A stretch of 64,000 nucleotides of DNA from Neocallimastix sp. 'constans' (taxonomy: Eukaryota): assembly GCA_050613775.1 (NCBI GenBank), contig JBODTK010000011.1, positions 1,240,001 to 1,304,000 on the forward strand, in the 5' to 3' direction. Each line of letters begins with the position of its first letter. The first letter of the stretch is position 1. Below are positions 13,085 to 41,392 of this stretch, piece after piece. The translations under genes and the position numbers were made by a program. Below the pieces are notes generated by a model that saw only the letters and a program-made list of their open reading frames with translations, ran no database searches and was not told where the DNA came from.

Positions 13085-13090
13085 ATTTTG

Positions 13091-14111
13091 TGTAAGAAAT
13101 CATAATTATTCAATAATGAATAATTAATATTTCTTATAATTAATGAAAAATAATTAATAATTTATAATTATTTATAAAATAATAATTATTTTTAAAAAAT
13201 ATTTATTTAAATAATAATTAATATATTCATTGATTTTAACTTATAAATTTATTTAATAGTTATATTTTCATATATTGATTTAAATTTATTTACATATTAT
13301 AATTTATACATTTATATAAATAATATAAAATTTATTTACTTATTATTATTATTCATTTAAATAGAATTTTTACAAAAAATTATGTAAATTTGTATTTAAT
13401 ATTTTACCATAAAAATATTAGTTATTTTAATTAAAATGAATTATGTATTTTATAATGTATTATAAACTATAAATGTATCTAATCTATCATATTATCTAAT
13501 CTTTATTTTTTAAATAAAAAAAAAAAAAAAAAAAAAAAAAATCTTTTTTTTTATTAATTCCTATCCTATCAATATTTAATATTTTATAATTAATTAGAAA
13601 ATCGGTAATTAATGTTTTTCCTAACAAATAGGTTTTCTTTAATTATACGATGATCAATATGATTAGAATATTGATCGAAAAACTATTTAGGTTTTTCTTC
13701 TAATCTTTTCCTAAATAGATTTTTTGTTAAGATTAGAAAATAAATTTATTTAACCGATTAATTTTTTAAAAAATATAAATAGGACTCTTGAATTCTCTTT
13801 GAGAAATCAAGAGTTATTATTTTAAGAAAATATAATAAATAATAACAAATAAAATAAATTTTTTATTTATATATCAAAAAAACTGTTATTAATCATAAAA
13901 GGTTTTTTTTTTTTAAAGAATATTTTCAACTACTATTCTGCCGTTGCTTGGTTATTGTTTGTTATATTTACTTATAATAAACTCTGTATAATTAAGTATA
14001 ATTTTTATTTTTTTAATTTTATTTTCTCAATTTTAATATTATATAAAAATAATATTAAAATTGTAGATAATAGTTATATTAATTAATTTTAGTTTTAGTA
14101 TAGCTATTACA
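13091..14111 (+). mobile_element. Solo LTR, Gypsy-B (TGTAAG) family
   Basis: TGTAAG...TTACA with 5-bp TSD TTTTG on both sides; core homologous to the LTR at 15969-16841. Confidence 0.88.
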
Positions 14112-14769
14112 TTTTGTGATAAATAATAATAATATATATTAAGAAATAGTAAAAGATTTTATAATATTTTAAATATTAAAATAATTAAATAGTAATAACT
14201 TAATAATAATCTTATTCATAATATTAAATAATTATAATAATTTTTATTATTATAATAATATTATTTAATAATAATACTTATATACATATGATTGGAAAAT
14301 ATAGTTACACCAACTATAATAATAATATAAATATAAAATTTTTTATATGGAATAATTAGTTCTATATAAATTAATTTATAAAATTTTTGGGAAATAATTA
14401 TGAAATTTATTAAGAGAATTTATTTAGAAAAATAATGAATTATAACAATTAAAAATATTTCTCAACGTTGTATAATCAACTATATAAATATTAAATAAAA
14501 ATTATTATTATAACAAATATATAAAGTTATAAACTATATTATTTATATTATAGTATTTAACTATTTTAATTATTTATAAAAAAATTATAATATTTAATAT
14601 ATAGATTAAATATTATATAAATTTTTAATAAAACATTTTTTTTTTTAAAATAATTAAGTAAATTTAAATATTAAATATCGGTAAAACTTGTTAAAACAAA
14701 ACAAGGTAAAACGATATAAAATAAGTTTAAGAAAATAAAATAAATAATACCTTAAACTTATTATTTGTG

Positions 14770-16841
14770 TGTAAGAATCTATAATTATTTGCTAACAAAT
14801 AATTATATTTTCTTAGTTAAGTTATTATAATTATAACTTTATGGCGTACTTCACTTTCAAAGGCGTATTATTATTCCTTCCAGTCTCAGGGCTAGACTTT
14901 TAAAGTCTTTCCATGATGCACCCACTAGTGGCCATCAAGGGGTAGATAGGACCTTTGAAAAACTCAGAAGGAACTACTGGTGGCCTAATATGAAAAAAGA
15001 TATTTCAAATTATGTGGCTTCTTGTGATGTTTGTTGTAGAAATAAAATCCGTCGTCATAAACCTTATGGTAAACTAATACCACTTCCTACTCCTACAAAA
15101 CCCTGGGAAGTTATTGGCGTCGATTTTATTGTTTCATTGCCTTCTTCACAAGATTGCACTTGTATCATGGTTGTTTCTGATCATTTAACCAAAATGATTC
15201 ATTTAGTACCCTGCTCCGATGTTCCCTCTGCCGATTTAACTGCTAAGCTCTTACTTTTCCAAGTCTTTAAGTATCATGGTTTTCCTAAAGTGATTGTGTC
15301 TGATCATGGTTCCCAATTCTCTTCTCAATTTTGGACTTCGTTGTGCGATGCTATTCGTGCTAAACCAAGACTTGCTACTGCTCACCACCAACAATCAAAT
15401 GGTCAGGTTGAACGGGCTAATGCTGTAATAGAACAATATCTTCGCTGCTATTGTTCTTCTGCTCAAAACGAATGGTGTTTCTACCTCCCTTTATGTGAAA
15501 TGTCCTACAACAACTCCATTCACAAATCAATAGCTCAAACTCCTTTTCATGCTAACTATGGATTTGACCCAAATTGTGTTATTGATTCACCACCGATTCT
15601 GCTAAAAGATAGTGCTTCTGTTCTTACTAGGGATTGGTCTTCACATTTCAATGCCCTTCGTCAACATTTAGTTAAAGCCAAAGAAGATTTTAAGAAATAT
15701 GCTGACAATAAAAAATCTGTAGGACCTGACTTTAAGGTAAATGATTTGGTAATGCTTAGAAGATACTACTTTACGAATGAACCCTCTAGAAAATTATCCA
15801 CTCAATATATTGGACCTTTTAAAATCATCGAGAAAAGGGAAAGAATGAATTACCGTTTGGAACTTCCAGAGAACTTACATCTCCATCCGGTATTTCATAT
15901 CTCACAATTGGAACCATATACTAAAAGAAATGAAGACTTAATGGAAACATCATAATTAAACAGAGCAATGTAAGAATCTATAATTATTTGCTAACAAATA
16001 ATTATATTTTCTTAGTTAAGTTATTATAATTATAACTTTATTTAATTACATATAATATTTATTAAATTTATTTAATTTAATTTTAAATATTCATTAATTT
16101 AACAAAATTTATTTAATTAATTTTAAATAATATATTTACAATATGTTAAATTCTCTACTGTAACTAATGTATTTTGTATTGTATTTTATTCTGTATTTTA
16201 TAATGCATTCTGTATTATATAATGTATTCTGTATTTTATTAACTATTTAATTTTATATTTTTAATATAAGGATAAATTATATGATCGAAATATCTTTTAT
16301 TATTTTATTCTTTTATTTTCGATCATTAGATTGGAAAATCGGTTAATTAAGATTTTTTCCAATTACTTTTTAGAAGTAATCGGTTTTACTTAATTAATGC
16401 GATGATCGATATGGATAGAATATCGATCAAAAACTTATCTAGGTTTTTCTATCTAATCTTTTCCTAGATAAGAGATTTGTTAAGATTAGAAAACCCTTTC
16501 TTATTTAACCTTATTTTCATAAAAAAATATAAATAAGGCTCTTGAGTTCTCTTTGAGAAATCAAGAGTTATTATTATAAAAAACATAGTTATAATAGTAA
16601 CAATTTTATATTTTTAACTTTAATAAATTAATAAAATATTTTATTCAAAAAACATATTTTAAAATCAAATTTATACAAACAATTCTTCTCTTACTTCTCG
16701 TGTTATTATTATAATTAATTTTATAATAAACTCTAAAGGTAAAAAAAATTTATCTTATTTTATTTTCTCAACTTAATGAATTAGTCGTTAAGTTGTAGTC
16801 AATAATTCTATTTTGAGTTAGTTATTAATAGAATTATTACA
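14770..16841 (+). mobile_element. Internally deleted Ty3/Gypsy element (Gypsy-B)
   Basis: First ~72 bp of the LTR (14770-14841) fused directly to integrase coding sequence; complete 3' LTR 15969-16841; flanks TTGTG/TTGTA. Confidence 0.9.
14840..15955 (+). pseudogene. Gypsy (Tf2/chromovirus-like) integrase fragment without chromodomain
   Basis: Frame open upstream of the called ATG: HDAPTSGHQG...YWWPNM...CDVC, then VDF...SDHGSQF...NGQVER, GPF motif, HPVFHISQLEPY, then stop. Confidence 0.9.
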
Positions 16842-16842
16842 T

Positions 16843-17525
16843 TGTATAATAATCTATTTATAATATACTAACTATAACTAGATTATTAATATTTTAAGAT
16901 ATAAAAATTTATACTTAACTTTATATAGAGTTTATTATAAACACTAAATATTGATATAAACAAAAAGACTTTATTTCTTTTAATTTATTATATAGCATTA
17001 TATAATAATAACTCTAATTTCTTTAATCAAAGAAATTTGAGTTCTTTTATACTTTTTTATTTATAATTATTTTAATAGATGAAATTATTAAATAGATGTA
17101 ATTATTAAATAAATAAAATAGATAAGATAAAGTTAACAAATCAAATAAAGGTATCTAATCTTAACAAATTGATATTCAGGAAAAGATTAGTAGAAAAACC
17201 TGAATAACTTCGATTAATATTCTAATATATTAATCATCGTATTAATTAATAAAAACCCAATCATAATAATATTGGGGAAAAAATTAATTAACCGATTACT
17301 AAAATCTTATAAATTATCAACTAATTGAAATAATAAAATATAAATAATATTTTTAAGTAATTAATATATTATAACAAATTTGTTTACATTATTTTTCAAT
17401 ATATATTAATTTGGATAAATTAATATATTTTTTACATGTTAATAAATATTGAAATATAAATGAAATATAAATTAATTAAATAAGAAGATAGATTATTTTA
17501 TAAGAAATAAATCTATATTCTTACA
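16843..17525 (-). mobile_element. Diverged solo LTR, Gypsy-B family
   Basis: Minus strand starts TGTAAGAATA and carries the same structured core (17150-17297). Left boundary approximate; no clear TSD. Confidence 0.75.
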
Positions 17526-17827
17526 TTTTGATACAAGATGAAAAGAAAAATAATGATATTTTAAAATTATTATTAAATTATATTTGTTAAATATTGTGGC
17601 AGTGTTTAGATACAAAATACTAAATATACATTTTAATACATTATCAATTACATTGTAAATATAAATTTATATAACTATAAAAAAAAAAAAATAATAATAA
17701 TAATAATAATCTTAGCAGTAAGAAATAAATAAATAAAAAAGTAAACAAATAAAAACATAAGTTCATCTGAAATTATATTAAGAATTTTTATTAATATGTA
17801 TTGTGTATTCCAAACCTAAACTTAATA

Positions 17828-34391: not shown

Positions 34392-35884
34392 ATTATTTAC
34401 ATATGACGTCACATGTATTTATTTATATTATGTTTATATATATGTTTACATCATATATATTAACTACTATTTTTAATTATTCAAATTAATTATAAAAATT
34501 AAATTTATTTAATTATATTAAATATTTTAAACATATCGATATTGTTATTATTTTAATATTTTATTAATAATCATTTTACTATATTATTATTATCTTATAA
34601 TTAAATACTATTATTATGTAACTTACAAAGTATAAAAGAAAGATCTAAAAATCTATCTTTTATGTTCTTTGTAAGGTTATTGTGTTACAATTATATACTA
34701 ATAATTCAACTTTTATTAAATAAATAAATATTTTATAAATCTTCAAATAAATTATTGTTTAAATTATTCATTAAATATTAAGTGTTTAAATAAATTAATT
34801 ATTTAACTTATTTTATTTTAATTATTATTTTATTATTAATTAATTATTTTTGTATTATTAATATATAATTCAACATATTAACCTAGTAACGTTAGTAATT
34901 ATAAAGCTATTTTATATCTTAATTTTAACATACAACTTAATAATAACTAAATAATAATTATTATTAAATTGAGAAAGCAAAAAAGATAAATATACTTATA
35001 TTCTATAAGAAAGAGTTTATTATAACTAATTATAATAAACTAATAACACAGAATTGTCAAAGAGAAAAGATTATTTTATTTTATTTTTAAATTTGTTTTA
35101 TTAAAACTTACTTTATTAAAATAGAAATATAAAATATTTATTAATGTTATTACTATATTATAATTGTTATAATAATAACTCCTGATTTCTCAAAGAGAAT
35201 TCAAGAGCCTTATTTATACTTTTTTGAAAAATAAGGGGTTAAATTAAAAAATGTTTTCTAATCTTAACAAATCTCTTATCTAGGAAAAGATTAGAGAGAA
35301 AAACCTAGATAAGACTTTTTGATCGATATTCTATCCATATCGATCATCGTATCAATTAGGTAAAACCAATTACTTTTGAGAAGTAATTGGAAAAAACTCT
35401 AATTAACCGATTCGTTAATGTAATTAATCGAAAATAAAAGAATAAAATAATAAAAGATATTTCGATCATAAAATTATATATTTACAAATAAGGAAAATAA
35501 CATAATAATGATATTAATAAACAAAATACAGAATACATTATTAAAATACATATTAGAATACATAATATATTTGTTTACAATTTAATTAAATAAATAAACT
35601 AAAACTAATAAATTTAATAATTAAATGTATAATTAAATAAACTATAATTATTTATAAATGTATAAATAATAATTAATTAAATAAATTTTGTTGTATTATA
35701 TTAATGAATATCTAATATGGAGTTAAATAAATTATTAATAATATTTAAATGAATAAATATTATATAATTAAATAAAGTTATAATTATAACTTTAACTAAG
35801 AAAATATAATTATTTTATTTAAAAATAATTATAGATTCTTACATCTGGGAGAAAATTAAATAAATGCATATATTAATAAATAAC

Positions 35885-41310: not shown

Positions 41311-41392
41311 CGTCACCTGCAGGACTCGAACCTGCGCTCCCAAAGGGAAATGGCTTAGCAGGCCACCGCGTTAACCACTCCGCCAAAGTGAC
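41311..41392 (-). tRNA. tRNA-Ser(GCT)
   Basis: GTCACTT-TGGCGGAGTGGTTAACGC-GGTGGC CT GCT AA GCCAT-long variable arm-GCAGGTTCGAGTCCTGC-AGGTGACG; 82 nt, no intron, downstream T-runs. Confidence 0.97.

What the first reader, a model, noticed from the sequence alone, without database searches (positions are those of the whole stretch)
16335..16570. Whole multi-domain RNA architecture conserved by compensatory change while the rest of the LTR diverges
Seen: between the two U-rich domains lies a conserved ACGAU/GCGAU linker and a hairpin with compensatory pairs (GAUCAAUAU/AUAUUGAUC, GAUCGAUAU/AUAUCGAUC, GAUUAAUAU/AUAUUAAUC). AAUCGGU(UAA) can pair with UUAACC(GAUU) to close the module. After the TATA box there is a further hairpin CUCUUGA..UUCUC-uuu-GAGAA..UCAAGAG. 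Flanking LTR sequence aligns poorly between copies. Inference: a ~180-nt selected cis-acting RNA (stability, export, packaging, or possibly catalytic).
Basis: partly seen in the sequence, partly recalled or inferred. Interest (0 to 1): 0.7.

Follow-up and report, generated by a model that had tools for sequence, protein, structure and literature searches.

The report
Two-domain poly(A) clamp in fungal LTRs
Four diverged copies of a fungal retrotransposon's end repeat share the same predicted RNA fold, a classic U-rich loop that likely grips the poly(A) tail plus an unusual knotted second loop, so it is likely a new variant of a known RNA-stabilising element; its function is untested.

Summary
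The feature is real. Four Ty3/gypsy LTRs in the window, probably from an anaerobic gut fungus, share a ~155-nt U3 module at 81-93% pairwise identity, while most flanks are near shuffled level. Six pairs change on both sides.

Domain 1 has the shape of a single-domain ENE, a U-rich internal loop known to bind poly(A) tails.

Domain 2 is unusual: U-runs on a G-C stem, capped by an 8-9 bp pseudoknot whose purine strand also fits a parallel triplex. It beats shuffles but is invariant, so covariation cannot confirm it. The post-TATA hairpin is predicted to free the poly(A) signal preferentially in 3'-LTR transcripts. I found no ribozyme evidence.

Best reading (0.6): a two-site poly(A)-tail stabiliser, a new variant of a known kind; function untested. 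The scan noted simple ENE-like hairpins in other fungal LTRs before. The main survey of transposon ENEs could not be read.

The parts
14770..14842 (+). 73-bp stub of the 5' LTR of the internally deleted element that carries copy A
   Evidence: 100% identical to 15969-16041; flanks TTGTG / TTGTA as a 4-of-5 target-site duplication
14837..15955 (+). Integrase part of pol (zinc-binding, rve, Tf2-1-like SH3; no chromodomain hit), Ty3/gypsy type; fixes the + strand as sense
   Evidence: Pfam; relatives at 71-99% in metagenomes, and a protein labelled Orpsp1 at 46%
15969..16841 (+). LTR copy A (TG...CA), the 3' LTR
16338..16403 (+). Domain 1, ENE-like: basal helix AUCG 16338-41 / CGAU 16400-03, bulged purine 16399, lower stem, U5/U4 internal loop (16354-58 / 16384-87), upper stem closed by CC 16359-60 / GG 16382-83
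   Evidence: MFE; same fold in 4 of 4 copies with the upper stem sequence replaced; 16398 T>C variant would turn G-U into G-C
16404..16428 (+). Middle hairpin, 9 bp, loop ending in invariant UAGA; abuts domain 1 directly
   Evidence: 2 of 9 pairs changed on both sides; role of the loop unexplained
16434..16472 (+). Domain 2 stem (10 bp ending in GG/CC) with a 19-nt loop: U5, CU, 1-2 variable nt, CUAAUC, U4
   Evidence: 4 of 10 pairs changed on both sides; loop otherwise invariant in 4 of 4 copies
16482..16490 (+). Predicted pseudoknot 3' strand AAGAUUAGA, complementary to 16452-16460; its AAGA also matches loop UUCU (16447-50) in parallel, as a triplex would need
   Evidence: 8-9 Watson-Crick pairs in 4 of 4 copies; 4, 1, 36 and 1 of 2000 shuffles as good; all 8 counted pairs never vary; 16456 A>G variant keeps G-U
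16505..16510 (+). Conserved UUAAC(C); partner unresolved (GUUAA 16479-83 or GGUUAA 16341-46)
   Evidence: 0 of 11 sites variable in 16503-16513 against 15 of 26 in the rest of the spacer; spacing tied to the module (12-17 nt), not to TATA
16528..16535 (+). TATA box (inferred)
   Evidence: a TATA word lies 37 nt before GAGTT in 4 of 4 copies; C has a second one at 51 nt
16537..16569 (+). Post-TATA hairpin; the transcription start is inferred to fall in its loop or 3' arm
   Evidence: -10 to -15 kcal/mol in 4 of 4 copies; listed variants only in the 5' arm
16564..16579 (+). R-start strand predicted to pair with the poly(A)-signal motif
   Evidence: duplex -6.6 to -9.0 kcal/mol; 1, 43, 4 and 3 of 2000 shuffles as good
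16721..16734 (+). Invariant 14-nt motif holding AAUAAA (16725-16730), the putative poly(A) signal
   Evidence: identical in 4 of 4 copies
13091..14110 (+). Solo LTR copy B, module at about 13600-13760
   Evidence: target-site duplication TTTTG/TTTTG; model match
16843..17525 (-). LTR copy C, most diverged, module at about 17128-17299
34880..35843 (-). LTR copy D, module at about 35231-35414; its 3' end was not fixed

Best explanation
The U3 region of this Ty3/gypsy LTR carries a conserved, covarying RNA module that likely clamps the transcript's poly(A) tail in triple helices and so would protect the retrotransposon RNA from deadenylation. Shown in the sequence: three abutting helical domains and two pairs of facing U-runs, 217-238 nt upstream of an invariant AAUAAA. 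Inferred: the module is transcribed only from the 3' LTR, because it lies upstream of the TATA box. Inferred from ENE biology: domain 1 binds about four or five A's as U.A-U triples. Predicted: in domain 2 the pseudoknot helix CUAAUC/GAUUAG replaces the upper stem of an ENE, and the loop's invariant CU extends the triplex onto the G and A of the pseudoknot strand. The element's own AA fills half the U-loop until tail A's take its place, at which point the tail's last A would stack against that G; this last step is speculative. Predicted separately: the U3 arm of the post-TATA hairpin captures the R-start strand and loosens the helix that hides AAUAAA, favouring polyadenylation in the 3' LTR.
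For: Domain 1 keeps both U-runs, the CC/GG closure and the lower stem in 4 of 4 copies while the upper stem is replaced outright. Both U-runs stay unpaired in full U3-R folds (0.83-1.0). [quoted passage not shown] The domain-2 stem covaries and ends in invariant GG/CC below U5/U4 runs. The pseudoknot duplex beats shuffles in all four copies. In DNA contigs of four studies, 16 of 154 module sites against 15 of 37 spacer sites show a listed variant. Folding shortens the path from the inferred 3' end to the loops from 280-372 nt to 11-65 steps. The cost of opening AAUAAA drops by 2.2-4.9 kcal/mol with the U3 arm; 2, 0, 1 and 0 of 40 shuffled arms do as well.
Against: No binding, stability, start-site or poly(A)-site data exist here. 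All runs were assembled contigs, which cannot show ends or strand, and cover in RNA libraries may be DNA. Covariation rests on four related sequences. The pseudoknot never varies, so it has no compensatory support. Domain 2 has no canonical upper stem. Domain 1 has A-U or mixed pairs, not a G-C run, under its loop, unlike the G-C flanks needed in Evade. Of 13 listed variants at paired or facing sites 9 keep or improve a pair and 4 break one unless the partner also changed, which is little better than chance for transitions. The invariant UAGA loop, the UUUG before the pseudoknot strand and UUAAC are not explained. In the pseudoknot-free fold of copy B the domain-2 stem is displaced. Most of AAUAAA stays paired even in the 3'-type fold.
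Confidence: 0.6

Rival explanations
1. Domain 2 is a self-contained pseudoknot triplex using only the element's own AAGA (U.A-U, U.A-U, C.G-C, U.A-U). It would act as a nuclease roadblock or as one state of a switch with the UAGA loop and UUAAC, and would not bind the tail.
For: Loop UUCU matches AAGA in parallel in 4 of 4 copies. The middle loop can pair with the domain-2 loop in A and B (-6.8, -6.6 kcal/mol), and GUUAA/UUAAC is complementary in 4 of 4 copies.
Against: It leaves three plus two invariant U's and the GG/CC closure unexplained. The loop-loop pairing is weak in C and D (-1.8, -2.6). The longer hairpin that would sequester the pseudoknot strand is no better than shuffled spacers (339, 1000, 248 and 125 of 1000).
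Confidence: 0.14
2. The module is a protein-binding signal for packaging, dimerisation, export or strand transfer, bound by Gag, reverse transcriptase or a host factor.
For: The long invariant single-stranded-looking tracts and the invariant UAGA loop exceed what base pairing needs. A loop-loop pairing could form between two molecules.
Against: It does not predict two pairs of facing U-runs or a CC/GG closure. Packaging signals of LTR elements usually lie near the 5' end (recalled, no call).
Confidence: 0.15
3. The conserved block is a DNA enhancer in U3, and the stems are palindromic factor sites.
For: It lies just upstream of the TATA box, and both strands fold well.
Against: Stem sequences change while pairing is kept. 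G-U-type variants on the sense strand are tolerated. GATA-type words (motif recalled) number 3, 0, 0 and 2 in the four copies. In C the module-to-TATA distance grows by about 50-60 nt while spacing inside the module holds.
Confidence: 0.07
4. The module is a self-cleaving ribozyme of a new class.
For: It is compact, multi-helical and pseudoknotted with many invariant unpaired bases.
Against: No Rfam family reaches threshold. The only match at E up to 10 over 15950-17550 is an 8.8-bit tmRNA fragment. Recalled hammerhead and hairpin core words are absent. The conserved loops are U-runs. Cleavage in U3 would cut off R and the tail (inference).
Confidence: 0.04

Closest known systems
Single-domain ENE (KSHV PAN RNA type) and transposable-element ENEs of plants and fungi
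   Same: U-rich internal loop between short helices, upper stem closed by C-G pairs, upstream of the poly(A) site. Reviews say such ENEs occur in fungal elements and inside LTRs (PMC7583470 section 3.4, PMC13541005 section 'Enhancing RNA stability' and Fig. 3 legend).
   Different: Here it sits in a four-part module. Domain 1's lower stem is A-U-rich. The original survey (Tycowski 2016) was not held, so I cannot say whether this family is in it.
Double-domain ENE (rice TWIFB1, Arabidopsis Evade)
   Same: Two U-rich domains in the 3' part of a transposon RNA; Evade's raises RNA stability and mobility (PMC12501189, passages and one section read).
   Different: In dENEs both loops lie in one hairpin separated by a short duplex. 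Here they are in separate hairpins with a third between them, and domain 2 is capped by a predicted pseudoknot.
MALAT1 / MEN-beta blunt-ended triplex
   Same: U-rich strands interrupted by C, with a genome-encoded purine tract downstream giving a possible C.G-C triple.
   Different: The cis tract here is only AAGA and continues into a pseudoknot. It is not a known 3' end, and no tRNA-like element was found next to it by Rfam.
HIV-1 poly(A) hairpin (5'-LTR signal occlusion)
   Same: AAUAAA in R held in a helix, proposed to suppress premature polyadenylation (PMC12789967, passages).
   Different: Here the helix is long-range and is predicted to be loosened by a U3-encoded arm present only in 3'-LTR transcripts.

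Membership tests
Single-domain ENE (domain 1) | U-rich internal loop with facing U-runs | tested here: met
   U5-6 facing U4-5 in 4 of 4 copies; predicted unpaired
Single-domain ENE (domain 1) | Short flanking helices kept by structure | tested here: met
   upper stem replaced with CC/GG kept; lower stem AA/UU to AG/CU in D
Single-domain ENE (domain 1) | G-C pairs next to the loop | tested here: inconclusive
   met above the loop in 4 of 4; below it a G-C lies within 1-3 positions in A, B, D and is absent in C
Single-domain ENE (domain 1) | In the sense transcript near the poly(A) tail | tested here: inconclusive
   sense to the integrase and upstream of AAUAAA; transcript ends not shown by contigs
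Single-domain ENE (domain 1) | Forms U.A-U triples with poly(A) and stabilises RNA | not testable with these tools
   needs melting, probing and reporter assays
Double-domain ENE | Two U-rich loops in one hairpin separated by a short duplex | tested here: not met
   the loops lie in separate hairpins
Double-domain ENE | Adenosine triad and 3'-end pocket motif | not tested
   the structure papers were not held; only a review's description was read
MALAT1-type blunt triplex (domain 2) | C-interrupted U-strands matching a genome-encoded purine tract | tested here: met
   UUCU / UCUU / AAGA in register in 4 of 4 copies, but only four triples
MALAT1-type blunt triplex (domain 2) | Purine tract is the processed 3' end, made by RNase P at a tRNA-like element | tested here: not met
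   no Rfam tRNA-like match in 15950-17550; the LTR continues to an AAUAAA
H-type pseudoknot (domain 2) | Loop complementary to a downstream strand beyond chance | tested here: met
   4, 1, 36 and 1 of 2000 shuffles as good
H-type pseudoknot (domain 2) | Compensatory change in the second stem | tested here: inconclusive
   8 of 8 pairs never vary; one G-U-compatible variant
Known self-cleaving ribozymes | Match to a curated covariance model | tested here: not met
Tf1/sushi self-priming | Primer-binding site complementary to the transcript's 5' end | tested here: inconclusive
   no intact 5' LTR junction of this family was obtained. A candidate site in relative L001 pairs 8 bp with the hairpin's 3' arm in 4 of 4 copies, but such runs occur 1-5 times per LTR and L001's LTR end is unverified

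The most novel reading that the evidence does not exclude
Domain 2 is a new class of poly(A) clamp, a pseudoknot-capped ENE. The tail displaces the element's own AA, forms four U.A-U triples and ends at a nick stacked on a C.G-C triple of the pseudoknot, burying its 3' end. It works in tandem with a canonical ENE, and a U3-encoded arm switches the poly(A) signal on only in the 3' LTR.
Probability: 0.25. Interest if true: 0.75.

Novelty: new variant of a known kind. Interest (0 to 1): 0.52.

Why it matters
ENEs are known in fungal and plant transposons, and one has been shown to raise retrotransposition. The three sources read describe single-domain, stacked double-domain and blunt-ended types only. 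A side-by-side arrangement with a pseudoknot-capped domain would add a fourth architecture for protecting a poly(A) tail, small enough (about 60 nt for domain 2) for direct structural work and possibly useful as an RNA-stabilising part. The predicted U3-arm switch offers a simple structural answer to how an LTR tells its 5' poly(A) signal from its 3' one.

Tried and rejected
No whole genome was held, so full alignments rest on 4 copies. Exact-pattern scans for domain 2 found 0 stretches in metagenome, viral and prokaryotic genome contigs. A looser 19-base pattern gave 30 viral loci; none matched the whole model above 19.5 bits, against 142-181 for the training copies, so I read them as chance. 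Integrase searches gave 0 viral loci, 2 metagenome loci and 1 genome locus; all three end before the module would begin or hold none. The covariance model found no fifth copy in the window (best other E 0.41). A long hairpin sequestering the pseudoknot strand is no better than chance. Loop-loop kissing is strong in 2 of 4 copies only. Self-priming is kept as a lead only. Targeting of LTR ends holds for 2 of 4 insertions; C lies about 60 nt from the copia LTR. RNA contigs cover the module in 3 of 4 libraries by listed pieces but show no start, end or poly(A) junction. Papers not held: Tycowski 2016, Torabi 2021 (two papers), Tycowski 2012, Lin and Levin 1998; their tables and supplements may list this family or this fold. 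Literature searches listed no paper on an ENE or pseudoknot in gut-fungal LTRs; I saw listings and abstract starts only, except where sections are named.

Full report
Context. The window is very AT-rich and is mostly retroelements. The finding lies in the 3' LTR (15969-16841) of an internally deleted Ty3/gypsy element whose remaining ORF is an integrase. Three more LTRs of the same group lie at 13091-14110 (+), 17525-16843 (-) and 35843 downward (-). I call the four A, B, C and D. The host is likely an anaerobic gut fungus. This is inferred from base composition, from an integrase relative labelled Orpsp1 at 46% identity (reading the label as Orpinomyces is recalled), and from the feces metagenomes that hold the sequence. 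No genome was held.

Is it conserved beyond the flanks? Yes. The module from AAUCGGU to the end of AAGAUUAGA is 0.81-0.93 identical in 6 of 6 pairs, against 0.58-0.61 for shuffles. Of 18 flank comparisons only two, both A-D, exceed z 3.2. In DNA contigs from four studies, 40 of 47 variant rows were shown. They fall on 16 of 154 module sites, 15 of 37 spacer sites and 3 of 52 sites of the TATA-hairpin block (Fisher p 5e-5 for module against spacer). Caveats: seven rows were hidden, higher depth in conserved blocks raises the 2% bar there, and run X1 may be the window's own source.

Domain 1. Folded alone, it gives one structure in 4 of 4 copies: basal AUCG/CGAU, one bulged purine, a G-U pair, an A-U-rich lower stem, facing U-runs, and an upper stem closed by CC/GG whose sequence and length change completely. 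The basal pair has probability 0.55-0.97 in full U3-R folds, but only 0.1-0.2 in B and D when the module is folded alone.

Middle hairpin and domain 2. The middle stem has 2 of 9 and the domain-2 stem 4 of 10 pairs changed on both sides. One of 500 column shuffles reached six such pairs, and sliding partners by 1-3 columns cut pairing from 98% to 30-44%. The tool warns that relatedness inflates the first control. The domain-2 loop reads U5, CU, one or two variable bases, CUAAUC, U4. It pairs over 8-9 Watson-Crick pairs with AAGAUUAG(A) about ten bases after the stem; 4, 1, 36 and 1 of 2000 shuffles of the downstream 45 nt did as well. These pairs never vary among the four copies. The one listed substitution inside them, 16456 A>G, keeps a G-U pair, and a one-base deletion at 16459 is listed in two of four runs. 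The loop's UUCU lines up in parallel with AAGA, the pattern of U.A-U, U.A-U, C.G-C, U.A-U triples (geometry inferred from H-type pseudoknot triplexes).

How it likely works. ENEs are U-rich internal loops that bind the poly(A) tail as U.A-U triples and block deadenylation. About 200 were predicted in transposons of plants and fungi, some inside LTRs, and the Evade one raises RNA stability and transposition. Domain 1 fits that description. It lies upstream of the TATA box, so it would be present only at the 3' end of the RNA, and folding of the intervening sequence brings the inferred 3' end within 11-65 steps of the loops. Domain 2 has the lower half of an ENE, with the upper stem replaced by the pseudoknot helix. 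The cis triplex explains CU and AAGA but not the other five invariant U's; binding of tail A's would explain them. I therefore favour a second tail-binding site in which tail A's can replace the cis AA. That step is speculative, and the purely cis triplex is the first rival.

The post-TATA hairpin. A TATA word lies 37 nt before GAGUU in 4 of 4 copies, even in C where the hairpin sequence differs. With a start about 25-35 nt after TATA (recalled spacing; not shown for this fungus), 5'-LTR transcripts would lack the hairpin's 5' arm. Their first bases pair with the invariant motif holding AAUAAA (1, 43, 4 and 3 of 2000 shuffles as good; in B and D another R segment pairs as well or better). Adding the U3 arm lowers the energy needed to open AAUAAA from 8.2, 5.9, 7.9 and 7.7 to 3.7, 2.3, 3.0 and 5.5 kcal/mol; 2, 0, 1 and 0 of 40 shuffled arms did as well. 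Most of the hexamer stays paired in the ensemble even then, so this is a predicted bias, not an on-off switch. Occlusion of a 5' poly(A) signal by structure is proposed for HIV-1. Self-priming, known for the Tf1/sushi group, could also constrain this arm, but the test was inconclusive.

Against and unresolved. Nothing functional was measured. All runs were contigs, so strand and ends are not shown. Both strands fold well. Of 13 listed variants at paired or facing sites, 9 keep or improve a pair and 4 break one unless the partner changed, one of these being compensated in D; this is weak support. The invariant UAGA loop, the UUUG and UUAAC have candidate partners but no decisive one. No further full copy was found in any collection. 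Rfam has no match.

What I read. PMC12501189: passages and one results section. PMC7583470: passages and section 3.4. PMC13541005: passages and the stability section. PMC4600332, PMC2864245, PMC6317226 and PMC12789967: passages. Tycowski 2012 and 2016, Torabi 2021 and Lin and Levin 1998 were not held and are known to me through these reviews or recall; their supplements may bear on novelty. Two earlier notes of this scan report simple ENE-like hairpins in LTRs of other genomes. I had stated the ENE reading before seeing them and did not check them.

Verdict. Domain 1 is most likely a new member of the transposon ENEs. The side-by-side layout with a pseudoknot-capped second domain is not described in the sources I could read. 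New variant of a known kind; interest 0.52.

Noticed in passing
window 14765-14769 / 16842-16846 and 13086-13090 / 14111-14115: Copy A's element sits on the terminal bases of LTR C, and copy B sits directly after the 3' LTR of another gypsy element. Target sites of A, B and C read TTGTG, TTTTG and TTTTG on the + strand, hinting at a site preference.
   Followed up: partly
window 16553-16560 and 16764-16771: A second conserved U5 word, UUUCUCAA in A, B and D, is complementary to the hairpin loop and 3' arm; it could hide a downstream poly(A) element in 5'-LTR transcripts.
   Followed up: partly
window 16570-16730: The R region folds into one long helix in A, B and C with different sequences, and less clearly in D.
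   Followed up: partly
L001:115-420: GC-rich, strongly folding stretch (-85 kcal/mol over 310 nt) upstream of gag in a relative with 79% integrase identity; no Rfam match at E up to 1.
   Followed up: partly
L002:75-105, L003:1-43, window 13517-13541: Long genome-encoded A runs lie in the leaders of two relatives and just upstream of copy B's module; they could be alternative A strands for the U-loops, but A runs are common in this genome.
   Followed up: no
L003: A relative of this retrotransposon (72% integrase identity) is filed in a bacterial MAG, likely a mis-binned fungal contig.
   Followed up: no
window 16443 and 16463: Variants G>T and C>T at the pair closing the domain-2 stem would, if on one molecule, lengthen both U-runs by one; phasing could not be seen.
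   Followed up: no
window 41311-41392 (-): A tRNA gene, the only Rfam match at gathering threshold in the window.
   Followed up: no
window 52628-52738 and 54296-54806: Long inverted repeats in very AT-rich DNA.
   Followed up: no
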